This document shows, in pieces, positions 1,338 to 13,394 of a stretch of DNA of 14,468 nucleotides; the stretch's first letter is position 1, and each line of letters begins with the position of its first letter. The stretch is from positions 1 to 14,468 of the forward strand of contig DATGXB010000113.1 of assembly GCA_035299225.1 (NCBI GenBank), read 5' to 3'. Source of the stretch: Nostocaceae cyanobacterium (GTDB lineage Bacteria > Cyanobacteriota > Cyanobacteriia > Cyanobacteriales > Nostocaceae). The notes beneath the pieces are model-generated. The model made no database searches. It was not told where the DNA came from and was given only the letters and a program-made list of their open reading frames with translations. Made by a program: the position numbers and the translations under genes.

Positions 1338-1404
1338 TATGTGTAGGGTGGGCATTTTTAGGTGAAATCTGAATTAAAGAGAATTATACTAATAAATGCC
1401 CACC
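1338..1404 (+). repeat. MITE-like hairpin element, copy 1 of 3 (tatgtgtagggtgggcattt ... aaatgcccacc)
   Basis: 11-bp inverted arms ggtgggcattt (1347-1357) and aaatgcccacc (1394-1404) with a 36-nt spacer. The whole ~67 bp aligns by eye to the reverse complements of 5627-5694 and 6219-6286. It covers the GTG at 1362 that opens the long version of the next ORF. Confidence 0.7.
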
Positions 1405-1448
1405 GATTTATATCATTAAAAACACAGCCTTTGTCAAGGATAAAAACT

Positions 1449-2009
1449 ATGCAATCTCCCTTAAATTTCCTCAGTATTGAAGAATACTTAGAAGTAGAAA
1501 AATCTAGTGATATTCGTCATGAATACATAGCCGGACAAGTCTTTGCAATGGCTGGTGCGAGTGAAGAACATAACATAATTGTAGGAAATCTTCTTGCTAT
1601 ATTACGTCCTCATTTACGCGGAAGTTCTTGTCGTGCTTTCGTCTCAGACATGAAAGTAAAAGTTCAGGTAAAAAACGCCGATATCTTTTATTATCCTGAT
1701 ATTTTAGTTACTTGTGATCCTGAAGATAAAGAAAGATATTTTAAAACCCGTCCTAACTTAATTATAGAAGTATTATCTGACTCAACCGCAACCACAGACA
1801 AACGAGAAAAACGCATTAACTACCAAACTTTAGACAGTTTACAAGAATATGTATTAGTGTACCAAAACCAAATCAAAATAGAAATTTATCGTCGAGATGA
1901 TTCGGGAAATTGGTTAATAGAAGTTTTAGGTAAAAATGATAAATTACGGTTAGATTCTGTGGGGTTAAATTTGACAATGGCAGATGTTTACGAAGATGTT
2001 AATCTGTAA
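1449..2009 (+). CDS. Uma2-family (DUF820) putative restriction-endonuclease-like protein
   Basis: Motifs typical of Uma2/DUF820: SIEEYLEVEKSSDIRHEYIAGQVFAMAGASEEHN, YYPDILVTCD, LIIEVLSDSTATTDKREKRINYQ, LQEYVLV. The ORF track starts at GTG 1362, but those 29 extra codons are encoded by the MITE-like repeat. ATG 1449 (MQSPLNFLSIEEY) is the more likely start. Confidence 0.8.
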   Translation: MQSPLNFLSIEEYLEVEKSSDIRHEYIAGQVFAMAGASEEHNIIVGNLLAILRPHLRGSSCRAFVSDMKVKVQVKNADIFYYPDILVTCDPEDKERYFKTRPNLIIEVLSDSTATTDKREKRINYQTLDSLQEYVLVYQNQIKIEIYRRDDSGNWLIEVLGKNDKLRLDSVGLNLTMADVYEDVNL

Positions 2010-2665: not shown

Positions 2666-2770
2666 CTTCTGCATCCCGGTGCACAAAGAATGTAACCCAA
2701 TACATTAAGAATGCAACCCGATACATTGCTTCTGCATCCCGGTGCACTGCTTCTGTATCCTGATCTAGAA
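2666..2770 (+). repeat. Five phased 21-bp repeat units (A-B-B-A-A') upstream of the small-protein/NB-ARC pair; candidate operator or iteron-like array
   Basis: Units start at 2666, 2687, 2708, 2729 and 2750. A = cttctgcatcccggtgcac is identical at 2666-2684 and 2729-2747, and degenerate at 2750-2765. B = gaatgtaacccaatacatt at 2688-2706 and gaatgcaacccgatacatt at 2709-2727. B contains the inverted half-sites AATGTA-N6-TACATT. A and B share the core TG.A.CCC..T.CA. Confidence 0.6.
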
Positions 2771-2879: not shown

Positions 2880-3335
2880 ATGGAACCGATAACTCTAGCC
2901 ACAGCCGTAGCAACCCTGATGTTCTCTGAAACCATTAAAGAAACTGGAAAAAACCTTGGACAAGGAATTTCTGAACAAGCAGGACAATTGTTTAATCTGA
3001 TTCGGGAAAGATTTCAACAAGCAGGAACAGAGGGACTTTTAACCAGAACTGAAAAAGACCCCAATGAGAAAAATATCACCAAATTTCAAGACGAGTTAGA
3101 AACCCAATTGCAAGAAGACGAAGATTTTGCTCAACGTGTCCGGGAAATAGTCAAACAGTTAGAACCTGTGGTCAAAAAACGTCAAGTAATGGCTAGTGGA
3201 ATTAAAGTAGACGGAGCATTAGAAGCTGAAAATATGAAACAGAAAGCATCAGAAAGTAGTTCTTCAGAACAGGAAATGTTCACAGACGTAGAAGCAAAAA
3301 GTATTAAACTTGGTAACTTAACTCAAGAAGGCTAA
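2880..3335 (+). CDS. Small helical protein with a hydrophobic N-terminal helix and C-terminal duplicated short motif; candidate Bell/HeLo-like executioner partner of the downstream NB-ARC protein
   Basis: 151-aa ORF. Residues 3-15 (PITLATAVATLMF) are uncharged and hydrophobic. Residues ~17-100 are charged and helix-prone (QDELETQLQEDEDFAQRVREIVKQLE). The tail is QVMASGIKVDGALEAENMKQ, then the linker KASESSSSEQEMFTDVEA, then KSIKLGNLTQEG. The stop at 3333-3335 lies 4 nt before the next ATG. No enzymatic motif was recognised. Confidence 0.55.
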   Translation: MEPITLATAVATLMFSETIKETGKNLGQGISEQAGQLFNLIRERFQQAGTEGLLTRTEKDPNEKNITKFQDELETQLQEDEDFAQRVREIVKQLEPVVKKRQVMASGIKVDGALEAENMKQKASESSSSEQEMFTDVEAKSIKLGNLTQEG

Positions 3336-3339
3336 ACTA

Positions 3340-5208
3340 ATGAACATTCAACCCACTCCCGAACAGATTTTACAAAGCATTCTCAAAAATGTTTCAGTTG
3401 GCGGAAATTTGACCACAGGAGATATTACCCAAATTCTCAATTTATGGGTTGTTATTGAACAACAAGATATTTTTACATCAAAAGAAATTCCCCAAAATAT
3501 CCCCCGCAGTGACATCATTAAATTTGTGGGACGTGCTGAAGTTTTAGTGAACTTGCATAAAAAGCTACAAAATACCTCTGTAATTGCTGTTCAGGGAATG
3601 GGAGGACTAGGAAAAACTGAGTTAGCAACACAGTATGCACTCATTCACCTATTACTCAAAACCTATCCAGGGGGAATTTGTTGGTTACGCGCTGGAAAAG
3701 AAAATATAAATATAGGGACTCAGATTTTACAATTTGCTACAACTAAATTAGGACTTAAGCTGCCAGACAATTTGGACGCAGTTAAACAAGTTGATTACTG
3801 TTGGTCAAATTGGCGACGAGATGGGGATGTGTTAATAGTTTTGGATGATGTTACAGACTATCAAAGTGTAAAACCTTATTTACCGCCAGCATCACTAAAG
3901 TTTAAATTACTAATTACTTCTAGACTACAGTTAGATTCACCACAGTCTATTTCTTTAAATTTTTTGGATGAGTCACCAGCATTGGAACTGTTACAAACTT
4001 GGGTAGGGGAAAAGGTCACGCAAGAATTAGAAACAGCAAAAGAACTTTGTGAGTTTTTAGGTTATTTACCTTTAGCTTTAAACTTAGTAGGCAGGTACAT
4101 TAAAAAGCGTAATATTTCTTTAGCGAAAATGTTGCGGAGATTAGAGAAAGAAAAGATTACTCATCAAGCCCTAGCCAGAAATGAAAAAGACCCTACTTGG
4201 ACATTAAATGTAAATTCAGGTGTAATTGCAGCTTTTGAATTAAGTTGGTCAGAATTAAGTGATGATGCTAAAGAATTAGCAGTTTTACTCAGTTTATTTG
4301 CTTTAGCACCTATTCCTTGGTCATTAGTTGAAAAGGTAAAAACGGTCAGAGATGTAGAACAGTTGGAAGATAGCCGAATAGAATTAGAAAATTTACACCT
4401 GCTGCAAAGTAAAGAAAATTATGAATTACATCCATTAATTCGCCAATTTTTTCAACTTAAGCAGAATGAAATAAACGAAACGGAAGAATTAAAACGCGCC
4501 TTTTGCCAAACAATGGTAGAAGTTGCAAAGAAAATTCCTGACACAATCACTCTACAACAAGTTACTGATATTTCTCCTCAACTACCACACATAGCAGAAG
4601 TAGCAAACAATCTCATTGAATATGTCAGCGATAATGATTTAATCTGGCCTTTCTGGGGTAATGTTACATTTTACAAAGATCAGGGGTTATATGCTCAAGC
4701 TTTACCTTGGTGTCAGCAATGTCTAGAGACCACTAAACAAAGCTTGGGAGAAGAACATCCCGACTTTGCCACTAGCCTGAACAATTTGGCGTTCCTCTAC
4801 AACTCACAAGGCAGATACAGTGAAGCAGAACCCCTGTATCGGCAAGCATTGGAACTGAGGCGACGGGTGCTGGGAGAAGAACATCCCGACTTTGCCACTA
4901 GCCTGAACAATTTGGCGTTACTCTACTCCTCACAAGGCAGATACAGTGAAGCAGAACCCCTGTATCGGCAAGCATTGGAACTCTGGCGACGGGTGCTGGG
5001 AGAAGAACATCCCGACTTTGCCACTAGCCTGAACAATTTGGCGGGACTCTACGACTCACAAGGCAGATACAGTGAAGCAGAACCCCTGTATCGGCAAGCA
5101 TTGGAGATTTGCGAAAAAAGTTTAGGGGTAAATCATCCGCACACGGTTACTGTTAGTGAAAATTTGCAAATCTGCCAACAAGCTTTAGATAAATTATCAA
5201 ATCAATAA
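3340..5208 (+). CDS. NB-ARC (AP-ATPase/STAND) NTPase with C-terminal TPR repeats; bacterial NLR-like protein
   Basis: 622-aa ORF. NB-ARC motifs are FVGR (aa 62-65), Walker A GMGGLGKT (aa 86-93, nt 3595-3618), Walker B VLIVLDD (164-170), LLITSR (190-195) and the GLPL-type motif GYLPLAL (241-247). The C-terminus has three near-identical 42-aa TPR units (LGEEHPDFATSLNNLAxLYxSQGRYSEAEPLYRQALEL). Only ~55 aa precede the NTPase, so there is no effector domain. GAAGG (3327-3331) lies 8 nt upstream of the ATG. Confidence 0.9.
   Translation: MNIQPTPEQILQSILKNVSVGGNLTTGDITQILNLWVVIEQQDIFTSKEIPQNIPRSDIIKFVGRAEVLVNLHKKLQNTSVIAVQGMGGLGKTELATQYALIHLLLKTYPGGICWLRAGKENINIGTQILQFATTKLGLKLPDNLDAVKQVDYCWSNWRRDGDVLIVLDDVTDYQSVKPYLPPASLKFKLLITSRLQLDSPQSISLNFLDESPALELLQTWVGEKVTQELETAKELCEFLGYLPLALNLVGRYIKKRNISLAKMLRRLEKEKITHQALARNEKDPTWTLNVNSGVIAAFELSWSELSDDAKELAVLLSLFALAPIPWSLVEKVKTVRDVEQLEDSRIELENLHLLQSKENYELHPLIRQFFQLKQNEINETEELKRAFCQTMVEVAKKIPDTITLQQVTDISPQLPHIAEVANNLIEYVSDNDLIWPFWGNVTFYKDQGLYAQALPWCQQCLETTKQSLGEEHPDFATSLNNLAFLYNSQGRYSEAEPLYRQALELRRRVLGEEHPDFATSLNNLALLYSSQGRYSEAEPLYRQALELWRRVLGEEHPDFATSLNNLAGLYDSQGRYSEAEPLYRQALEICEKSLGVNHPHTVTVSENLQICQQALDKLSNQ
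4746..5105 (+). repeat. Tandem 126-bp repeat (2.9 copies) encoding 42-aa TPR units inside the NB-ARC gene
   Basis: Units start at 4746, 4872 and 4998. The DNA is identical except at codons 4792-4794/4918-4920/5044-5046 (ttc/tta/gga), codons 4801-4803/4927-4929/5053-5055 (aac/tcc/gac), and ctg agg versus ctc tgg near the ends of units 1 and 2. Confidence 0.95.
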
Positions 5209-5336: not shown

Positions 5337-5546
5337 TTAAAATCCGATTAATTTACCCAACCCATACTGTAAAGATTGACGAATATCCTCCGCTTCTAAA
5401 TCAGGATATTCTGCTAAAATCTCCTCTACAGGCTTACCATTAGCCACCAAATTAACCACCAAAGAAACCGGAATCCTCATTCCGCGAATGCAAGGCTGTC
5501 CAGCCATAATGCGGGGGTTAAATGTAATTCTGTCTAGACCTACCAT
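5337..5546 (-). CDS. DUF433 domain-containing protein (antitoxin-like), without a visible partner gene
   Basis: 69-aa ORF with RITFNPRIMAGQPCIRGMRIPVSLVVNLVANGKPVEEILAEYPDLEAEDIRQSLQY, the DUF433 pattern as I recall it. The usual downstream DUF5615/PIN-like partner is absent, and only a palindromic element follows. Confidence 0.75.
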   Translation of the reverse strand: MVGLDRITFNPRIMAGQPCIRGMRIPVSLVVNLVANGKPVEEILAEYPDLEAEDIRQSLQYGLGKLIGF

Positions 5547-5829: not shown

Positions 5830-6114
5830 ATGACATTAACAGAAATTTTACCCTCACTGCAAAAATTATCTCATCAAGAAAAAATTCAAGCCATTCAATT
5901 TTTAGCCTCAGAATTAGCTCAAGAAGCGCAAAATTTAGCAACAGAATCACTTGAGTATGGTGAGATAGATACAGAATTAAATTTTCAGCTTCTTAGTGAA
6001 AAAGACATGATTGAACAAAGCAAATCTGCTTTAGAAGCTTACCTCAGTGCAGGTTCAGGAGTCAAACATGAGCAAATCCAGAAATGGGCAAATAGTTTAA
6101 TAATTCAACAATAA
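5830..6114 (+). CDS. Putative type II antitoxin (addiction-module-component-like)
   Basis: 94-aa acidic ORF with an N-terminal LPSLQKLSHQEKIQAIQFLASEL helix pattern, as seen in small addiction-module antitoxins. A ParE/RelE-type toxin N-terminus follows 5 nt later. The family assignment rests on context and pattern only. Confidence 0.5.
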   Translation: MTLTEILPSLQKLSHQEKIQAIQFLASELAQEAQNLATESLEYGEIDTELNFQLLSEKDMIEQSKSALEAYLSAGSGVKHEQIQKWANSLIIQQ

Positions 6115-6376: not shown

Positions 6377-8953
6377 TTAGCCAACAACAAAATTAACCAA
6401 CTTCCCAGGAACAACAATTACCTTCTTAATCTCCTTACCCTCAATATACTTCTGTGCTATCTCCGATTCACGCGCAAATTTTTCCAACTCATCCTTACTT
6501 GCTTGTGCTGGGACTTGAATCGCACCGCGAGTTTTACCCAAAACCTGAATTACTAAAGTAATTTCATCTGCTATTAAAGCCGCAGGATCAAAAGCTGGCC
6601 AACTTACTTGATGCACTGATTCCCCATTACCTAATAAATGCCATAACTCATCGGCAATATGGGGAGCAAAAGGTGCTAACATAATGACTAATGTTTTAAT
6701 CCCCTCCCCATAAACGGCGGAATTTTTACAATCAGCATCGGTTAAAGCATTACTTAATTTCATCAACTCAGATATAGCTGTATTGAATTGATATTCATCT
6801 TCTACATCTTCGGTTACGGCTTTAATTGCTGTGTGAATTGCCCGTTTTAAATCTTTCTCAGATTTACTTAAATCACCATTTTTGGTTGTTTTAGGAACGC
6901 CGCCATTAATACAATCTGTTACCAACCGCCAAACCCGATTTAAAAAGCGGAATTGCCCCTCTACATCAGCCTCATTCCATTCTAAATCTTTTTCTGGTGG
7001 GGCTTTAAATAAAATGAACATCCGCGCTGTATCTATGCCATATTTACTAATGACATCTTCCGGGGCAACACCATTGCCTTTTGATTTGGACATGGTAGCA
7101 TAAAGACACTGTAAAGGTTCTCCGGTTTGCGGATCACGGGGGTTATTAGGATCTACTAAATGAGAAGGAATCCATTTATCTTTACCGGATTTATTCGGGT
7201 TCATGTAAGTTAAACCCTGTACCATGCCTTGAGTTAAAAGCCGTTGGAAGGGTTCATCAAAATTCAATAAACCTCTATCTCTTAATACTTTGGTAAAGAA
7301 ACGAGAATACAATAAATGTAAAATCGCGTGTTCTACTCCCCCCACATATTGATCTACAGGCATCCAATCATTTACTTTGGCTGAATCAAATACCTGATTG
7401 GCATTTTTAGCATCGGGATAACGCAAGAAATACCAGGAGGAATCTATAAAAGTATCCATTGTGTCTGTTTCCCGTTTGGCTGGTGTGCCACAGGTGGGAC
7501 AGGGAACATTTACCCAGTTTTCTAACTGTGCTAAGGGTGAAGCACCACGACCAGTAAATTCTACTTCTTCTGGTAATAATACGGGTAAATCTTCATCTGG
7601 TACAGGTACGACACCACAGTTAGGACAGTGAATAACGGGAATAGGTGCACCCCAATATCTCTGACGGGATATTAACCAATCTCGGAGGCGATACTGTACC
7701 CGCACTTTACCAAAACCTTGTTGTTCGGCGTATTCGGTGATCGCTTGTTTGGCTTCTGTGGAGTTTTTACCGTTAAATTGTTGGGAATTAATTAATATTC
7801 CGGGTTCGGTGTAAGCTGCGGTTAAAATTGGTGTTTCTTCTAGGTTGGCGGTTTCGGGAACTATTACTACTTGGATGGGTAAATTTTGTTCTTGGGCAAA
7901 TTTAAAGTCTCTGACATCATGGGCAGGAACTCCCATTACTGCGCCAGTTCCATATTCATACAATACATAATCAGCGACCCAAATGGGTACTTCTGCCCCG
8001 GTAAAGGGGTTAATGGCTTTGCCACCGGTGGCTATACCCCGTTTTGGTCTGTCTTCGGCGGTGCGTTCTATTTCGCTTTGGTTGGTGACTTCTTGAACGA
8101 AGCTATCAACGGCAGCTTTTTGTTCTGGGGTGGTTACTAATGCGGTTAAGGGGTGTTCTGGGGCTAAAACAACGTAACTCACACCATATACTGTATCGGG
8201 ACGGGTGGTGTAAACGCCTATTTTTTCTTCTCTCCCCACAATGGGAAATTCTAAATAAGCACCGACGGATTTTCCGATCCAGTTGGCTTGCATTAATTTG
8301 ACTTTTTCTGGCCAACCGGGTAATTTATCCAAGTCGTTTAATAATTCTTCGGCGTAGTCGGTGATTTTAAAGAACCATTGCCGTAGTAATTTGCGTTCCA
8401 CTTTGGCCCCACTGCGCCAAGAACGGCCTTCGCTGTCTACCTGTTCGTTAGCTAATACGGTTTGGTCTATTGGGTCCCAGTTAACTGCGGCTTCTTTTTG
8501 ATAGGCTAATCCGGCTTGTAAAAATTGCAGGAATATCCATTGTGTCCATTTATAATAATCTGGGGAACAGGTAGCAATTTCTGCTTCCCAGTCTAAGGAG
8601 AAACCCAGACGCTGTAATTGTTTCCGCATCTGGTCAATATTTTGATATGTCCATTTGGCGGGAGGAATGCCCCGGTCAATGGCGGCGTTTTCGGCGGGTA
8701 GTCCAAAGGCATCCCAACCCATTGGATGTAACACCCGATACCCCTGCATTCGCTTGAGGCGGGCAATTACGTCTGTAATGGCGTAGTTACGGACGTGCCC
8801 CATGTGTAGGCTACCGGATGGGTAGGGAAACATGGAAAGGGTGTAAAATTTTGGCTTGTTTTGATCTTGAGGGGTACGATCTAAGCCAAGTTCTGACCAT
8901 TTACTCTGCCATTTTTCCTCTATTGCGGCTGGGTTGTATCGGGATTCCACCAA
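6377..8953 (-). CDS. leuS: Leucine--tRNA ligase
   Basis: 858-aa ORF. It starts [19 protein letters not shown], has the class I HIGH motif as [15 protein letters not shown] and the KMSKS motif as TMSKSKGN, plus an editing-domain-sized insertion. The length is typical of bacterial LeuRS. Confidence 0.97.
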
Positions 8954-9548: not shown

Positions 9549-10043
9549 TTAATTTACATCTCTATCTGTAGATACTGTTTTTAGCTTTGGTCTGGGGTTA
9601 GATACGGCGGTTTTAGGAATTTCAATCACTGGGTTGTTAATAGCGACCATCAAGGGAGAAGTGGAGGCTTGTTTTGCTGTGGCTTCTGGTTTGGGTGATG
9701 TGATTGAATTTTGGGCAAATTGCAGGTTTCTAGAGCTAGTTGGTATAAGGTTAGTTATACTACCAATAGCACAAGCGGCGATCGCTCCTCCCAAAATCCA
9801 TGCCAACCGGGAACGACGCTGTAATCTTTCCTGAACCTGTTGCAAGACTTTCTCTGGTGACTGTGGGGCTGCGACTGGCATTGTTCGCATCCCTGATCTC
9901 AGTTTCAATAAACGGAAATACAGGTCTTTCACGGCGGGATCTGTGGCTAACCATTCTTCTACCTGTTTCCGTTCGCCGGCAGTGACTTCACCATCTAGGT
10001 AAGCACTCAATAACTCGAAGCGATCGCGCTTCACCATATCCAT
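9549..10043 (-). CDS. Anti-sigma factor (single-pass membrane; SapG-like partner of the upstream ECF sigma)
   Basis: 164-aa ORF with an N-terminal anti-sigma domain pattern (FELLSAYLDGEVTAGERKQVEEWLATDPAVKDLYFRLLKLRSGMR). One TM segment follows (LAWILGGAIAACAIGSI). It lies downstream of an ECF sigma gene on the same strand. Confidence 0.8.
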   Translation of the reverse strand: MDMVKRDRFELLSAYLDGEVTAGERKQVEEWLATDPAVKDLYFRLLKLRSGMRTMPVAAPQSPEKVLQQVQERLQRRSRLAWILGGAIAACAIGSITNLIPTSSRNLQFAQNSITSPKPEATAKQASTSPLMVAINNPVIEIPKTAVSNPRPKLKTVSTDRDVN

Positions 10044-10299
10044 AGTACCCGTTAATTTGTTGGTAGGCTGGGCCGTCCCACCAGGACAATTCCTTGATAG
10101 TTGTGAGTGGGAGGGTTCATTAAACTTTGAACCATTGTTTATCTTAACATTTTTACCAATTTTTGGACTGGTAAAATTTGCCTGCGAATTGGCATTTACG
10201 CCTTAATTTTGTTTGCTTTTCAAGACATATTTTGTGTGCATTTGATAATGCTTAATATTTCTTAAATTTTGCCCTGAAATTAAGGCTAACTGCGGTAAA

Positions 10300-10956
10300 T
10301 TAAATGTCTAGATATCTTTGCAACTGGGACTGCAATCTGGATCTAGCTCTAGCTATTCTGGATTTAACTGTACCCAAAGAAACGCCGGTAATTTCGGCTA
10401 TTTCTTCATAGGCCAGACCTTCTATCTCCCGTAATACAATTGTAGTTCGGAAAACTTCTGGTAAATCCGCGATCGCTTCTCGCAGTTGTTCATAAAATTC
10501 TCTAGTTGTTAGTTCTTCTTCTGGCCCTGGAGTATCACCAGCGATTTCCCAGTCCATCTCACCATCGTCCACGGAACGAGGAGCATCTAAGGACAAGGGA
10601 CTAACAACCCGTTTACGCTTGCGTAACTCATCATAAAACAAGTTAGTGGCAATCCGACTTAACCAACCCCGGAACTTAGCAGGTTCTTGTAAGCGGCTAA
10701 TATTCCGATACACACGAATCCAAACTTCCTGGGCTAAATCAGCTCGATCAGGCCAGTCAGGCGCTAAGTGATATAAAACCCTATCGACTTGAGTCTGATA
10801 GCGGCGCAACAGTTCTGCAAAAGCAGCACGGTCGGGGCGCAGTCCAGCTTGACAGCGCAAAATAAGATCATGATTTGAGAGTTTGTCAACTTGCACCGAT
10901 GCTTCTGAATACGTTGCATCAACCGTTGACCAGGATACAGTAATCGAATGACTCAT
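10300..10956 (-). CDS. sigG: ECF-type RNA polymerase sigma-70 family factor (SigG-like)
   Basis: Region 2 reads DRADLAQEVWIRVYRNISRLQEPAKFRGWLSRIATNLFYDELRKRKR. Region 4 HTH reads REIEGLAYEEIAEITGVSLGTVKSRIARARSRL. The ORF track starts at TTG 10998. I prefer ATG 10956 (MSHSITVSW) because a sigmaE-type promoter overlaps the TTG extension. The sigG symbol is by resemblance to the Nostoc/Anabaena sigG-sapG pair and is not verified. Confidence 0.85.
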   Translation of the reverse strand: MSHSITVSWSTVDATYSEASVQVDKLSNHDLILRCQAGLRPDRAAFAELLRRYQTQVDRVLYHLAPDWPDRADLAQEVWIRVYRNISRLQEPAKFRGWLSRIATNLFYDELRKRKRVVSPLSLDAPRSVDDGEMDWEIAGDTPGPEEELTTREFYEQLREAIADLPEVFRTTIVLREIEGLAYEEIAEITGVSLGTVKSRIARARSRLQSQLQRYLDI

Positions 10957-10988
10957 AGATCGGTTTGGCTTTAAATCATCCCTAGCTG

Positions 10989-11016
10989 TTAGACACAATA
11001 ATGGAAATTAAGTTCC
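10989..11016 (-). promoter_or_regulatory. Candidate ECF (sigmaE-type) autoregulatory promoter: GGAACTT-N16-TCTAA
   Basis: The minus strand reads cttGGGAACTTaatttccattattgtgTCTAAcagctagggatgatttaaagccaaaccgatctATG. The -35 GGAACTT is the complement of 11010-11016 and the -10 TCTAA is the complement of 10989-10993, with a 16-nt spacer. This matches the GGAACTT-N16-TCnaA consensus known for sigmaE-like ECF factors. The predicted TSS is ~10982, about 25 nt upstream of ATG 10956. Confidence 0.45.
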
Positions 11017-11070
11017 CAAGTAGGATGGCAGAATTATGATCAGAACCAAGAAATATATCTTTTGAGGGAG

Positions 11071-11126
11071 GAGTGCGGGGTAGAGGAGTGCTGAGTGCGG
11101 GGTGCGGAGTGTGGGGTGCAGGAGTA
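11071..11126 (+). repeat. G-rich degenerate heptanucleotide tandem repeat (STRR-like), about 8 units
   Basis: Read in sevens from 11071: gagtgcg gggtaga ggagtgc tgagtgc ggggtgc ggagtgt ggggtgc aggagta. It lies in the divergent intergenic region between the sigma gene and the L,D-transpeptidase gene. Confidence 0.7.
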
Positions 11127-11151
11127 ATTAATTATTTTTGACTTTTGCCAA

Positions 11152-11179
11152 TTCCCTGTTCCCTGTTCCCTGTTCCCTA
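11152..11179 (+). repeat. Heptanucleotide tandem repeat (TTCCCTG)x3 + TTCCCTA (STRR-like)
   Basis: The repeat is directly visible as ttccctg ttccctg ttccctg ttcccta. On the minus strand it reads (CAGGGAA)n and so contains GGAA(C) cores. Confidence 0.9.
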
Positions 11180-11311: not shown

Positions 11312-12079
11312 ATGGCAAGAAATGAATCTTTAGCAAGTATGGTGATGTTACTCTGTTTTGGTACAGCAATTTTATCTCTGGCTGTCCATTGGCGCAATCA
11401 AAATGCAGCAAATCAACCTGCGGCTTTAAACTCAAGTAGCTATAATGACAGTGATCAAAAATCTTCCAATGGAGTTTATCGCCCTACTTTCCCAGTGGGA
11501 ATTGGTGATGTGGCTTTGGCTGAAACTCCTCAAAAGCGTAATGTCGCCACCCAAACTAAAGGAAAGAGTAATCAAAAATCTAGATTAATCACAACAAAAG
11601 TAGTAGTCAATCCTAGTGATAATGATTGGCCAAAACCCAGGTTAGCAGTTAACGTTGCTCAACCTAAAACAAATATATTCCCAGAGTCCAATCAGGCACA
11701 ACTAATGGTAGATTTAAGCGATCGCCGGGTTTATGTTTACCGCAATGATTATGTAATTGCTAGTTATCCCATCGCTATTGGTAAGAAGGGCTGGGATACA
11801 CCTACAGGTAACTTTCAGGTTGTGCATAAAGAACATGATCCCATCTGGAAACATCCAATTACTGGTAAAGTATTTGAAGCTGGTACGGATAGCCCATTAG
11901 GTGAGCGCTGGATCGGTTTTTGGTCAGATGGGAGAAATGAGATCGGCTTTCACGGTACACCTGATATTGACTTAATAGGAGAAGCTGTGTCTCATGGTTG
12001 TCTAAGAATGCGAAATTCTGATATTAAGTTGCTTTACGACCAAGTAAGTTTAGGCACAACTGTGTTAGTCCGCGAGTAA
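11312..12079 (+). CDS. L,D-transpeptidase (YkuD domain) family protein, membrane-anchored
   Basis: 255-aa ORF with an N-terminal hydrophobic anchor (MVMLLCFGTAILSLAV). The C-terminal YkuD domain has YPIAIGKKGWDTPTG and the catalytic GFHGTP...SHGCLRM motif. Confidence 0.88.
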   Translation: MARNESLASMVMLLCFGTAILSLAVHWRNQNAANQPAALNSSSYNDSDQKSSNGVYRPTFPVGIGDVALAETPQKRNVATQTKGKSNQKSRLITTKVVVNPSDNDWPKPRLAVNVAQPKTNIFPESNQAQLMVDLSDRRVYVYRNDYVIASYPIAIGKKGWDTPTGNFQVVHKEHDPIWKHPITGKVFEAGTDSPLGERWIGFWSDGRNEIGFHGTPDIDLIGEAVSHGCLRMRNSDIKLLYDQVSLGTTVLVRE

Positions 12080-12941: not shown

Positions 12942-13394
12942 CTATTCCAGGGTAATTACATAAAAAATATTGATACTATTACCAACAAATTTTAAAGCTT
13001 GCTGAGGATATGTCACCACTGCGTCACCAATGCCTTTGCGGTAGTTGGTTAGCCTGGTTTGATTTTCTAAGTGCCCCTGACAATACTTTTTATCTAATTT
13101 CTTGAATGATCTAAAAGATTCGGCAACTGAATTTAAAATCCTTTGCACTGCTTGAGAATACAAAACTTGATAGTGATTGTTAGCTTTGTATTCTTTTTCT
13201 AAATCAAATTTGCCGATGATTTGTCCAGTCTTAAAAAATAGCTGACGAGTATAGTAAATACTACTGTTTGTCAGCTTGTAAGATTCAGAACAAATAAACT
13301 CAAGAATTGCTTTTAAATCTTCATTTAGATTAATCAGATTTTGTTGGCATCCGTATAATTTAGTCACCTCCTTACTAAAATGTAATGATAACAT
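12942..13394 (-). pseudogene. tnpB: Truncated N-terminal fragment of an IS200/IS605-family TnpB (OrfB/IS1341-type) gene
   Basis: 150-aa ORF. The stretch CSESYKLTNSSIYYTRQLFF ... YSQAVQRILNSVAESFRSFKKLDKKYCQGHLENQTRLTNYRKGIGDAVVTYPQQALKF fits the TnpB N-terminal pattern (SKNLYNxANYxxRQ ... AQQxL ... WKSFF ... PKLPxYxKK ... QAxK). Key residues are degraded. The RuvC (GIDLG) and zinc-finger parts are absent (full length is ~400 aa), and no tnpA is present. Confidence 0.6.

What the first reader, a model, noticed from the sequence alone, without database searches (positions are those of the whole stretch)
4746..5105. Near-identical 126-bp TPR repeats whose only differences fall on canonical ligand-contact codons
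Units 1 and 2 are full 126-bp copies and unit 3 matches for 108 bp. All are identical at the DNA level except at three places:
- One codon reads ttc/tta/gga (F/L/G).
- A second codon reads aac/tcc/gac (N/S/D).
- ctg agg versus ctc tgg (LR versus LW) occurs near the unit end. This includes the single synonymous difference (ctg/ctc), which sits immediately next to the R/W change.

Aligning ATSLNNLAxLYxSQGRYSEAEPLYRQALEL to the 34-residue TPR consensus (W4 L7 G8 Y11 A20 F24 A27) puts the first two variable residues at positions 9 and 12. These belong to the helix-A concave-face set (2, 5, 9, 12, 13) known to contact ligands.

Zero silent divergence elsewhere, combined with multi-nucleotide changes at contact codons, implies recent amplification or conversion with diversification of specificity. 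Fungal NLR repeat domains show this behaviour.
Basis: partly seen in the sequence, partly recalled or inferred. Interest (0 to 1): 0.65.

Follow-up and report, generated by a model that had tools for sequence, protein, structure and literature searches.

The report
Near-identical TPR sensor repeats, cyanobacterial NLR
The near-identical 126-bp repeats are the ligand-sensing tail of a cyanobacterial NLR-type (NB-ARC + TPR) immune-receptor-like protein, and they differ only at the family's fastest-evolving, ligand-contact positions, a pattern already described in fungal NLRs and noted in bacteria.

Summary

The repeats are 42-residue kinesin-light-chain-type TPRs. They form the C-terminal end of a 622-aa NB-ARC/TPR protein (3340-5208) from a Nostocales cyanobacterium.

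The three variable codons are repeat positions 17, 20 and 39, which are TPR positions 9, 12 and 31.
- In 490 repeats from 100 homologues, these are three of the four most variable positions.
- They are the top three among near-identical repeat pairs within a protein.
- In 72 related genes, these codons give pN/pS of about 2.1, against 0.33 for the other codons.
- 62% of repeats have their closest DNA relative in their own array, which indicates concerted evolution.
- By register with human KLC1, the three positions correspond to V305/L347, R266 and R327. All of these contact cargo peptides in crystal structures.

The phenomenon, "high internal conservation" NLR repeats, is documented in fungi and has been noted in cyanobacteria, so this is a new member of a known kind.

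A 151-aa gene lies 4 bp upstream. Its C-terminus shares a roughly 20-residue motif with the NLR N-terminus, which suggests an amyloid-signalling effector/receptor pair.

Repeat number here (3) may be underestimated by the assembly.

The parts
2880..3335 (+). Upstream 151-aa ORF: helical domain (residues 3-98) followed by a beta-strand-rich C-terminal region. It is the candidate cell-death effector partner (Bell-like), with no Pfam family.
   Evidence: The ORF comes and its translation, with no Pfam hit. There are 25 homologues of 150-154 aa in Nostocales, aligned. The AF2 model has helices 3-98 and strands 101-150. A homologue lies directly upstream on the same strand in 26 of 81 related loci.
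3177..3332 (+). C-terminal region of the upstream ORF (residues 100-151) with two roughly 20-residue pseudo-repeats (QVMASGIKVDGALEAENMKQ and QEMFTDVEAKSIKLGNLTQ). It is the candidate amyloid-signalling motif.
   Evidence: A profile of this region matches the N-termini of NLR homologues. 58 of 120 score at least 10 bits, against 0 of 600 shuffled and 0 of 120 reversed sequences. Both pseudo-repeats (profile positions 3-22 and 32-51) align to the NLR motif.
3340..5208 (+). 622-aa NB-ARC/TPR (NLR-type STAND) protein. It starts 4 nt after the stop codon of the upstream ORF.
   Evidence: ORF and translation. Pfam gives NB-ARC at E 2e-14, TPR_12 at 6.6e-68 and TPR_10 at 3.7e-62. 2044 homologues have E of 1e-10 or better, mostly Nostocales.
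3373..3432 (+). N-terminal motif of the NLR (residues 12-31, QSILKNVSVGGNLTTGDITQ). It is a single copy of the motif found twice in the upstream protein.
   Evidence: The motif is conserved across homologues. It is hit by the upstream-ORF C-terminal profile at 15.8 bits, E 8e-5.
3553..4161 (+). NB-ARC nucleotide-binding oligomerisation domain (residues 72-274). The Walker A motif GMGGLGKT is at 3595-3618.
   Evidence: Pfam PF00931, residues 72-274. The Walker A motif was read from the translation.
4618..4743 (+). Degenerate first 42-residue TPR (N-terminal cap, residues 427-468).
   Evidence: Weak match (8.7 bits) to the repeat HMM in register with the array. It is helical in the AF2 model.
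4744..4869 (+). TPR unit 1 in codon register (residues 469-510). The variable codons are 17 = TTC (F, 4792-4794), 20 = AAC (N, 4801-4803) and 39 = AGG (R, 4858-4860).
4870..4995 (+). TPR unit 2 (residues 511-552). The variable codons are 17 = TTA (L, 4918-4920), 20 = TCC (S, 4927-4929) and 39 = TGG (W, 4984-4986).
4996..5121 (+). TPR unit 3 (residues 553-594). The variable codons are 17 = GGA (G, 5044-5046), 20 = GAC (D, 5053-5055) and 39 = TGC (C, 5110-5112). DNA identity to units 1 and 2 ends at 5105.
5122..5208 (+). C-terminal capping helix region (residues 595-622) and the stop codon.
   Evidence: Translation. The AF2 model has a helix at model residues 201-216, which are protein residues 605-620.

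Best explanation
The repeats encode the sensor domain of a bacterial NLR-type receptor (N-terminal signalling motif, then NB-ARC ATPase, then 42-residue KLC-type TPRs) in a filamentous (Nostocales) cyanobacterium.

The array is a "high internal conservation" (HIC) array. Recombination between the 126-bp units (unequal crossing-over or gene conversion, inferred) keeps the scaffold nearly identical at the DNA level and changes unit number. Selection keeps or creates differences at the few residues that line the concave ligand groove: repeat positions 17, 20 and 39, and in the wider family also 7, 10 and 21.

Each unit therefore presents the same backbone-binding asparagine pair (LNNLA) with a different set of specificity residues: F-N-R, L-S-W and G-D-C.

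By analogy with other STAND/NLR proteins, ligand binding in the groove would release NB-ARC oligomerisation. The clustered N-terminal motifs would then template the matching double motif of the adjacent 151-aa protein into an amyloid and activate it as a cell-death effector. This amounts to abortive infection or non-self response.

Shown here:
- the repeat anatomy and the domain architecture;
- family-wide hypervariability and pN/pS above 1 at exactly these codons;
- within-array clustering of repeats;
- correspondence to KLC1 cargo-contact residues;
- the conserved gene pair with a shared motif.

Inferred:
- the recombination mechanism;
- the ligand (probably an extended peptide of a phage or foreign protein);
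- amyloid templating;
- the defence role.
For: Anatomy:
- The array and its differences are as described.
- The protein carries NB-ARC plus TPR_10/TPR_12.
- The fold is KLC-like: PDB sequence hits to KLC1/2 at E 5e-69 and to the P. anserina nearly identical 42-residue repeats 4Y6W/4Y6C. The AF2 model has pLDDT above 90 over the repeats, and its Foldseek top hits are KLC1/2 TPR.

Hypervariable sites:
- Entropy ranks across 490 repeats from 100 homologues are 20 > 17 > 10 = 39.
- In 180 within-protein pairs at 85% identity or more (window excluded), differences peak at 17 (112), 20 (104) and 39 (86).

Selection:
- Codons 17/20/39 give pN/pS 2.10 and the six hypervariable codons give 2.37. The remaining 36 codons give 0.33. 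These come from 282 within-array pairs at 90% nucleotide identity or more.

Concerted evolution:
- 62% of repeats have their nearest neighbour in their own array, against 1.5% expected.
- Window units are at most 78% identical to any foreign repeat.

Contact mapping:
- KLC1 V305/L347 = position 17, R266 = position 20, R327 = position 39, K340 = position 10, K309/N351 = position 21. The asparagine pairs are positions 13/14 (PMC6214655; register).

Precedent:
- Fungal NB-ARC/TPR HIC repeats show repeat-number polymorphism and positively selected concave-face sites (PMC4986451).
- HIC has been noted in bacterial and cyanobacterial NLRs.

Gene pair:
- The intergenic gap is 4 nt.
- The shared motif is supported by the profile test.
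- A homologue of the upstream gene lies directly upstream in 26 of 81 loci.
- The paradigm is experimentally supported in E. coli by Bab/Agp (bioRxiv 10.1101/2024.11.07.622273).
Against: - No orthologue closer than 70% identity and no second contig of this gene was found. Repeat-number polymorphism and allelic diversification of this particular gene are therefore untested.
- The window gene alone offers only 4-7 non-synonymous changes.
- The pN/pS figures come from non-independent repeat pairs in arrays that recombine, which can distort such ratios. No recombination-aware site test was run.
- PADLOC finds no known defence system. The neighbours are mostly housekeeping genes (leuS, aldo/keto reductase).
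- For the amyloid part, the pairwise similarity of the two motifs in this window alone is not significant (p 0.08-0.12).
- The helical domain of the upstream protein has no significant Pfam or PDB match, so calling it a Bell domain is unproven.
Confidence: 0.8

Rival explanations
1. This is a neutral, very recent tandem triplication. The few differences are chance mutations without functional meaning, and the variable positions are simply unconstrained surface residues.
For: - There are only three units and few substitutions.
- Over the whole unit 1 versus unit 2 comparison there are 4 non-synonymous and 2 synonymous differences, which is not significant as a gene-wide dN/dS.
Against: - All amino-acid differences within the identical stretch fall on the three positions that are most variable in near-identical repeat pairs of other genes. 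The chance of this is 1/11480.
- At those codons the family shows pN/pS of about 2.1, not the value of 1 or less expected from relaxed constraint.
- Two of the three sites need 2-3 nucleotide changes each.
- The positions are ligand contacts in KLC1.
Confidence: 0.07
2. This is an assembly artefact. The near-identity, or the number of units, results from collapse or consensus-merging of a longer repeat array in a short-read assembly.
For: - The protein is known from one contig only (14,580 nt).
- Homologues usually have 5-7 canonical units. The closest ones are 748 aa, exactly three units (126 aa) longer than this 622-aa protein.
- HIC arrays are known to need long reads for correct reconstruction (PMC13449251).
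Against: - The reading frame is intact.
- Each unit carries a unique combination of variable codons.
- The longest exact stretch shared between units is only 59 nt. That is shorter than usual reads and the larger assembly k-mers, so the three-unit path is resolvable.
- The same pattern occurs in isolate and complete genomes of related cyanobacteria, so the phenomenon itself is not an artefact.
- Only the copy number here remains uncertain.
Confidence: 0.1
3. A dedicated mutator such as a diversity-generating retroelement, or another site-directed mechanism, causes targeted hypermutation and writes the variable codons.
For: - The differences are clusters of adjacent nucleotides. One cluster (GA to CT at 4857-4858) straddles a codon boundary and includes a synonymous change.
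- Adjacent multi-nucleotide differences are enriched family-wide: 3-nt runs number 153 against 11 expected.
- DGRs do diversify STAND/NLR sensors in multicellular bacteria (PMC10907252).
Against: - There is no reverse transcriptase or template repeat in the window.
- The substitutions are not adenine-specific (TT to GG, AA to TC).
- Known DGR targets are C-type-lectin or FGE folds, not TPRs.
- Multi-nucleotide clusters are expected anyway where selection favours amino-acid replacement at single codons.
- The L38 codon is not linked to the residue at position 39 across the family.
Confidence: 0.03

Closest known systems
Fungal HIC (high internal conservation) NB-ARC/TPR NLRs, for example Podospora anserina Pa_2_10340, het-z and PaPnt1 (Dyrka et al. 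2014, PMC4986451; PMC13449251). The structure of the nearly identical 42-residue repeats is PDB 4Y6C/4Y6W (Marold et al. 2015).
   Same: - The architecture is the same: NB-ARC plus 42-residue KLC-type TPRs.
- Repeats are nearly identical at the DNA level.
- A handful of hypervariable positions lie on the concave face.
- There is evidence of concerted evolution and a variable repeat number between relatives.
- 4Y6W/4Y6C are hit by sequence (E 1e-25) and by fold.
   Different: - The host is bacterial, so there is no RIP (the fungal repeat-induced point mutation process) and no heterokaryon incompatibility context.
- The array here is very short (three canonical units).
- Sequence identity of the repeats to the fungal ones is only about 27-28% in the structural alignment.
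- Repeat-number polymorphism within a population was not testable here.
Bacterial Bell/BASS-NLR amyloid signalling gene pairs (Dyrka et al. 2020, bioRxiv 10.1101/2020.01.06.895854) and the E. coli Bab/Agp antiphage system (bioRxiv 10.1101/2024.11.07.622273).
   Same: - A small helical protein is encoded collinearly, 4 nt upstream of an NB-ARC/TPR gene.
- A roughly 20-residue motif is shared between its C-terminus and the NLR N-terminus.
- There are two copies of the motif on the small protein and one on the receptor, as in HET-s/NWD2.
- The host is a filamentous cyanobacterium.
   Different: - The helical domain could not be shown to be a Bell domain: there is no Pfam model hit and no PDB fold match.
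- The motif could not be assigned to one of the BASS1-11 families.
- Amyloid formation is untested.
Kinesin light chain TPR domain (KLC1/KLC2; PDB 3NF1, 6FUZ, 3ZFW).
   Same: - The repeat is a 42-residue TPR with the LNNLA asparagine pair.
- Identity to the AF2 model of this domain is 42-44% in the structural alignment, and the sequence E-value is 5e-69.
- The window's variable positions coincide with KLC1 cargo-peptide contacts V305/L347, R266 and R327.
   Different: - KLC repeats are diverged from one another and conserved between species.
- KLC has no NB-ARC domain and no role in immunity.
- The resemblance says how the groove probably binds a peptide, not what is bound.
Bacterial antiviral STAND/NLR proteins (Avs, bNACHT).
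   Same: - They share the tripartite logic of effector or adaptor, STAND NTPase and C-terminal repeat sensor that binds phage proteins (as summarised in PMC10907252).
   Different: - Here the NTPase is NB-ARC and the N-terminus is a short motif rather than an enzymatic effector.
- No PADLOC model is matched.
- No phage-defence phenotype is known for this family.

Membership tests
NLR-type STAND protein (NB-ARC + superstructure-forming repeats) | Central NB-ARC/NACHT NTPase domain with a P-loop | tested here: met
   Pfam NB-ARC hits at E 2e-14 and 53.9 bits (cut-off 23.5) over residues 72-274. The Walker A motif GMGGLGKT is at residues 86-93.
NLR-type STAND protein (NB-ARC + superstructure-forming repeats) | C-terminal TPR, WD40, ANK or LRR repeat domain | tested here: met
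   TPR_12 hits at E 6.6e-68 and TPR_10 at 3.7e-62. The AF2 model is a helical repeat solenoid with pLDDT above 90.
NLR-type STAND protein (NB-ARC + superstructure-forming repeats) | N-terminal effector or signalling module | tested here: inconclusive
   There are only about 60 residues before the NB-ARC domain. They hold a conserved motif that matches the upstream protein's C-terminus, but no recognised domain.
HIC (high internal conservation) NLR repeats | Repeat units at 80-85% identity or more over 100 residues or more | tested here: met
   Units 1 and 2 are 39/42 identical in amino acids and 95-96% in nucleotides. Unit 3 is identical over its first 36 codons except at two codons. The span is about 120 residues.
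HIC (high internal conservation) NLR repeats | A few hypervariable positions under diversifying selection on the binding surface | tested here: met
   This was tested at family level. Positions 17/20/39 top the variability rankings, with pN/pS 2.1 against 0.33. The positions map to KLC1 contact residues. For the window gene alone the sample is too small for a test.
HIC (high internal conservation) NLR repeats | Concerted evolution: repeats of one gene are more alike than positional counterparts in relatives | tested here: met
   Window units are at most 78% identical to foreign repeats but 95-96% to each other. 62% of repeats have their nearest neighbour in their own array, against 1.5% expected.
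HIC (high internal conservation) NLR repeats | Repeat-number polymorphism between strains of one species | not testable with these tools
   No close orthologue or second contig was found. Between homologues the number of canonical units ranges from 1 to 20.
42-residue KLC-type TPR (Pfam TPR_10 / TPR_12; '42PR') | 42-residue period with lengthened helices A and B and the KLC-like consensus | tested here: met
   The period is 126 bp. TPR_10 profile positions 2-42 of 42 are matched. The top PDB hits are KLC1/2 by sequence and by fold. Helix A spans repeat positions 6-21 and helix B spans 25-43.
Bell/BASS-NLR amyloid signalling pair | Collinear adjacent genes, usually 10 bp or less apart | tested here: met
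   The upstream stop codon ends at 3335 and the NLR start is at 3340, on the same strand. The pair is conserved in 26 of 81 related loci.
Bell/BASS-NLR amyloid signalling pair | The same short motif at the effector C-terminus and the NLR N-terminus | tested here: met
   The profile of the C-terminal region hits 58 of 120 NLR N-termini at 10 bits or more, against 0 of 600 shuffled and 0 of 120 reversed. The window NLR scores 15.8 bits. The single pairwise comparison in this window is not significant on its own.
Bell/BASS-NLR amyloid signalling pair | The effector N-terminal domain is a Bell (HeLo-like, membrane-targeting) domain | tested here: inconclusive
   The domain is helical, spans about 100 residues and has a hydrophobic N-terminal helix. 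There is no Pfam hit, no PDB sequence hit and no PDB fold hit. No Bell model was available.
Bell/BASS-NLR amyloid signalling pair | The motif forms amyloid and templates the partner | not testable with these tools
   AF2 predicts beta strands for residues 101-150, which is compatible with this but is not a test.
Diversity-generating retroelement target | Nearby reverse transcriptase and template repeat, with adenine-specific substitutions | tested here: not met
   No RT domain is found in any ORF of the window. The substitutions include TT to GG and AA to TC.

The most novel reading that the evidence does not exclude
The hypervariable codons of these bacterial TPR arrays may not be diversified only by ordinary mutation plus selection. 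An active, locus-specific process could be at work, such as frequent cassette-like exchange of 126-bp units within and between paralogous NLR genes, or a site-directed multi-nucleotide mutator.

In that case a filamentous cyanobacterium would generate new receptor specificities on ecological time scales, as a quasi-adaptive repertoire. The residues at three to six positions per unit would form a readable recognition code for phage peptides.

Two observations are compatible with this but do not demand it: the dinucleotide change that straddles a codon boundary (4857-4858), and the strong family-wide excess of adjacent multi-nucleotide differences.
Probability: 0.08. Interest if true: 0.75.

Novelty: new member of a known kind. 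Interest (0 to 1): 0.35.

Why it matters
The locus is a compact bacterial example of an NLR sensor whose scaffold is homogenised while its ligand-contact residues diversify. The same evolutionary regime is described for fungal allorecognition and immune NLRs.

The family-level numbers obtained here are:
- the three to six hypervariable positions;
- pN/pS above 2 at those positions against 0.33 elsewhere;
- exact correspondence to KLC1 peptide-contact residues.

[quoted passage not shown] They also predict which residues set specificity and that the ligand is an extended peptide held by the conserved asparagine pairs.

Together with the adjacent motif-sharing small gene, the locus is a candidate two-gene receptor/executioner module for experimental work in filamentous cyanobacteria. 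It does not reveal a new kind of system.

Tried and rejected
1. Close orthologues or paralogues for allele and repeat-number comparison. None were found.
- A genome-contig scan with the N-terminal 467 aa found none.
- The best protein homologue is 70% identical, and the window protein's cluster has a single member.
- An exact 38-nt core of the unit is absent from genome contigs and metagenome contigs.

2. Direct geometric mapping of the variable residues on the AF2 model. Coordinates are not exposed, so I mapped by register to KLC1 contact lists instead.

3. Ancient linked "cassette" alleles explaining CTC-TGG versus CTG-AGG. This was rejected because the L38 codon is not associated with the residue at position 39 across 519 repeats.

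4. DGR or other retroelement. This was rejected.

5. Known defence-system models. PADLOC gives only a generic TPR hit. NCBIfam gives a below-cut-off FxSxx_TPR match (221 against 300 bits), and no FxSxx peptide system is nearby.

6. Fold or sequence identification of the upstream protein's helical domain. There was no significant hit.

7. A second Bell/HeLo-like gene at 12942-13394. The sub-threshold HeLo hit (E 0.08) is not supported by profile comparison.

8. Marold et al. 2015 could not be read. Which BASS family the motif belongs to could not be determined from the text available.

9. Rfam, tRNA and terminator or promoter scans added nothing.
Full report
OBSERVATION

Tandem Repeats Finder reports a single strong array at 4745-5105: period 126 bp, 2.9 copies, 96% matches, no indels, score 666.

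- Over the first 108 bp the three units are identical except at unit offsets 47-49 and 56-57.
  - Offsets 47-49: 4792-4794 TTC, 4918-4920 TTA, 5044-5046 GGA, giving F/L/G.
  - Offsets 56-57: 4801-4803 AAC, 4927-4929 TCC, 5053-5055 GAC, giving N/S/D.
- Units 1 and 2 differ additionally only at 4857-4858 (CTG AGG versus CTC TGG).
- Unit 3 diverges after 5105.

Every statement of fact in the finding is correct.

In codon register the units start at 4744. The first codon there is TTG in unit 1 and CTG in unit 2, which is a further synonymous difference at the left edge of the repeat.

WHAT THE REPEATS BELONG TO

The array lies in an intact 622-aa ORF, 3340-5208 on the + strand.

- Pfam finds an NB-ARC domain (residues 72-274, E 2e-14), followed by TPR_12 (E 6.6e-68) and TPR_10 (E 3.7e-62).
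- A Walker A motif GMGGLGKT is at residues 86-93.
- The protein is therefore an NB-ARC/TPR STAND protein with the architecture called NLR-like in fungi and bacteria.

The organism is a Nostocales cyanobacterium.

- The neighbouring leucyl-tRNA synthetase (6377-8953, - strand) is 82-83% identical to those of Nostoc, Aliinostoc, Scytonema and Brasilonema.
- The NLR's homologues are nearly all from Nostoc, Tolypothrix, Scytonema, Calothrix and relatives.

The repeat is the 42-residue kinesin-light-chain type.

- The best solved relatives by sequence are KLC1/KLC2 TPR domains (E 5e-69). The Podospora anserina "nearly identical TPR-like repeats" 4Y6W/4Y6C are also hit (E 1e-25).
- An AF2 model of residues 405-622 has pLDDT above 90 over the repeats. 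Helix A covers repeat positions 6-21 and helix B covers positions 25-43.
- Foldseek returns KLC1/KLC2 first (E about 3e-12, 42-44% identity) and also 4Y6W/4Y6C.

REGISTER

I number the unit from L of LGEEHPD (window 4744). The variable codons are then 17, 20 and 39. Pfam TPR_1 aligns residues 520-548 to profile positions 2-30. Repeat position 17 is therefore TPR 9, position 20 is TPR 12 and position 39 is TPR 31.

IS THE PLACEMENT OF THE DIFFERENCES MEANINGFUL?

I collected the 120 best homologues of the N-terminal half and cut out their repeats with an HMM.

- Among 490 canonical repeats from 100 proteins, the most variable positions by entropy are 20 (3.45 bits), 17 (3.43), then 10 and 39 (3.10 each). 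Positions 33, 21 and 7 follow.
- I restricted the comparison to pairs of repeats in the same protein that are at least 85% identical, and left the window protein out. Differences then pile up at 17 (112 of 180 pairs), 20 (104) and 39 (86), followed by 7, 10 and 21.

The window's three variable codons are thus exactly the family's three hottest positions. For three positions drawn at random from 42, the chance of this is 1 in 11,480.

DNA-LEVEL TEST

I fetched 80 related loci from reference genomes using an alignment of the NB-ARC region. From these I extracted 519 in-frame 126-bp units in 73 arrays.

High DNA identity between units is the rule in this family. The median of the best within-array identity is 0.905, and the window's is 0.952. 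The window is typical, not exceptional.

In 282 within-array pairs at 90% nucleotide identity or more (window excluded):

| Codon set | pN | pS | pN/pS |
|---|---|---|---|
| 17/20/39 | 0.322 | 0.154 | 2.10 |
| Six hypervariable codons | 0.265 | 0.112 | 2.37 |
| Other 36 codons | 0.029 | 0.088 | 0.33 |

The same contrast holds for pairs at 80-90% identity.

Further results on concerted evolution and orthologues:

- 62% of all units have their nearest DNA neighbour in their own array, against 1.5% expected.
- The window's units are at most 78% identical to any unit elsewhere, although they are 95-96% identical to each other.
- Between ortholog-like protein pairs, differences at positionally matched repeats are twice as frequent at the hypervariable positions as expected: 42 against 20.9.

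Together this is the signature of concerted evolution of the scaffold with diversifying selection at a few codons.

Caveats:

- The pairs are not independent.
- Recombination can bias pN/pS.
- No recombination-aware site model was run.

DO THE VARIABLE RESIDUES CONTACT LIGAND?

The KLC1 sequence aligned and the residue numbers in Pernigo et al. 2018 (PMC6214655) are mutually consistent. N259, N301 and N343 are at position 13, and N302, N344 and N386 are at position 14.

| Repeat position | KLC1 residue(s) | Role in KLC1 |
|---|---|---|
| 13/14 | Asparagine pairs | Hydrogen-bond the peptide backbone |
| 17 | V305, L347 | Line the tyrosine pocket; V305T nearly abolishes JIP1 binding |
| 20 | R266 | Salt bridge to the acidic residue; R266S nearly abolishes binding |
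| 39 | R327 | Holds the C-terminal aspartate of TorsinA |
| 10 | K340 | Peptide contact |
| 21 | K309, N351 | Peptide contact |

All three variable positions of the window, and the next three of the family, correspond to experimentally defined cargo-contact residues. The invariant LNNLA pair corresponds to the backbone-binding asparagines.

The fungal precedent is direct. In P. anserina NB-ARC/TPR NLRs with highly conserved 42-residue repeats, Dyrka et al. 2014 found repeat-number polymorphism. They also found three positively selected sites which, together with the other polymorphic sites, map to the concave side of a KLC2-based model (PMC4986451).

SURROUNDINGS

A 151-aa ORF at 2880-3335 ends 4 nt before the NLR start, on the same strand.

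- It has no Pfam family.
- It has 25 homologues of 150-154 aa in Nostocales.
- A homologue sits directly upstream of the NLR gene in 26 of the 81 loci examined, including all the closest ones.
- AF2 with a 14-sequence alignment predicts a helical domain (residues 3-98) followed by short beta strands (101-150).

The NLR N-terminus carries a motif, QSILKNVSVGGNLTTGDITQ, that is conserved across the family. I tested whether the upstream protein's C-terminus shares it.

- A profile of the upstream protein's C-terminal 50 residues hits the first 60 residues of 58 of 120 NLR homologues at 10 bits or more. It hits 0 of 600 shuffled and 0 of 120 reversed controls at that level.
- The window's own NLR scores 15.8 bits.
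- Both halves of the profile (positions 3-22 and 32-51) align to the NLR motif.
- The single pairwise comparison within this window is not significant by itself (p 0.08-0.12).

Two motif copies on the small protein and one on the receptor is the layout of HET-s/NWD2, and of some bacterial Bell/BASS-NLR pairs described by Dyrka et al. 2020. In those pairs, 57% of collinear genes lie 10 bp or less apart. An E. coli pair of this design, Bab/Agp, has been reported to act as an abortive-infection antiphage system through amyloid templating.

I could not show that the helical domain is a Bell domain, nor assign the motif to a numbered BASS family.

MECHANISM (BEST ESTIMATE)

The TPR array forms a groove. 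In it, the conserved asparagine pairs hold an extended peptide. Residues 17, 20 and 39 of each unit (F-N-R, L-S-W, G-D-C) set specificity, together with positions 7, 10 and 21, which are invariant in this gene.

Unequal recombination or conversion between 126-bp units homogenises the scaffold and alters unit number. Selection preserves or favours differences at the contact codons.

Ligand binding would trigger NB-ARC oligomerisation. The clustered N-terminal motifs would then seed the double motif of the upstream protein and activate it.

The first part (HIC sensor with hypervariable contact sites) is well supported. The signalling part is an inference from gene order, motif sharing and published analogues.

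RIVALS

- **Neutral recent triplication.** This is unlikely given the 1-in-11,480 coincidence and the family-wide pN/pS above 2.
- **Assembly artefact.**
  - The pattern itself cannot be an artefact, because isolate and complete genomes show it.
  - The longest exact stretch shared by units is only 59 nt.
  - The unit count may still be too low. Most homologues have 5-7 canonical units, and the closest are exactly three units longer (748 against 622 aa).
- **DGR-type mutator.** This is rejected. No reverse transcriptase is present in the window, and the substitutions are not adenine-directed.
- **The dinucleotide change across a codon boundary (4857-4858).**
  - Adjacent multi-nucleotide differences are in excess family-wide: 3-nt runs number 153 against 11 expected.
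  - This is most simply explained by repeated replacement at selected codons.
  - The L38 codon is not linked to the residue at 39 across the family, so there is no sign of ancient linked cassettes.

NOVELTY

High internal conservation of NLR repeats with hypervariable binding-surface positions is established in fungi.

- Dyrka et al. [quoted passage not shown]
- A 2026 study reports HIC NLRs in all domains of life, including Cyanobacteria (PMC13449251).
- In the library searched, I found no paper giving site-wise evidence for cyanobacterial NB-ARC/TPR arrays.

The family-level numbers here add detail, but the finding is a new member of a known kind. Interest is moderate to low for a specialist. 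The locus is a neat, compact example and a reasonable experimental candidate.

Noticed in passing
window 2880-3335 and 3373-3432: A 151-aa gene lies 4 nt upstream of the NLR. Its beta-rich C-terminus carries two copies of a roughly 20-residue motif that is present once at the NLR N-terminus. This is a candidate amyloid-signalling effector/receptor pair (HET-s/NWD2-like layout). The pair is conserved in 26 of 81 related loci.
   Followed up: yes
window 2667-2747: An exact 18-nt direct repeat, TTCTGCATCCCGGTGCAC, occurs at 2667-2684 and 2730-2747 (0 expected by chance). It brackets two 21-bp tandem units (2686-2727). The repeats lie in the intergenic region upstream of the gene pair and may be an operator or a small repeat element.
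   Followed up: partly
window 11070-11178: Heptanucleotide tandem repeats (GGAGTGC x7.7 at 11070-11125; TTCCCTG x3.9 at 11152-11178) lie in the spacer between the ECF sigma factor gene (10300-10998, -) and a YkuD L,D-transpeptidase gene (11312-12079, +).
   Followed up: no
window 5337-5546 (- strand): A small 69-aa ORF of the DUF433 family (E 2.6e-24) lies in the 1.17-kb stretch between the NLR gene and leuS. It was missed by the ORF listing at 80 aa or more. The rest of that stretch, including ORF 5830-6114, has no recognisable family.
   Followed up: partly
window 12942-13394 (- strand): A 150-aa ORF has no family. A sub-threshold Pfam HeLo hit (E 0.08) is not backed by profile comparison with the upstream-ORF family (hhalign probability 0.15%).
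   Followed up: partly
window 9549-10998 (- strand): An anti-sigma factor with a zf-HC2 domain (9549-10043) and an ECF sigma factor (10300-10998) form a gene pair. They are unrelated to the finding.
   Followed up: no
window 1362-2009: A Uma2-family putative restriction endonuclease gene (E 8e-36) lies two genes upstream of the pair. This family is abundant in cyanobacteria.
   Followed up: no
homologues P0002, P0003, P0006 (748 aa) versus the window protein (622 aa): The closest homologues are longer by exactly 126 residues, which is three 42-residue units. This reflects either real unit-number variation or collapse of the array in this assembly.
   Followed up: partly
homologues P0116, P0031, P0049; locus L135: P0116 combines the same NB-ARC region with a caspase-like Peptidase_C14 annotation. 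P0031 carries the N-terminal motif twice. P0049 (Nostoc sp. C057) and L135 (Pseudanabaena) are plasmid-borne copies of the family.
   Followed up: no
loci L120, L121, L103, L100: Some relatives carry very long arrays (14-20 canonical units). Some have pairs of units that are 100% identical at the DNA level (L121, L101, L146, L122, L094).
   Followed up: no
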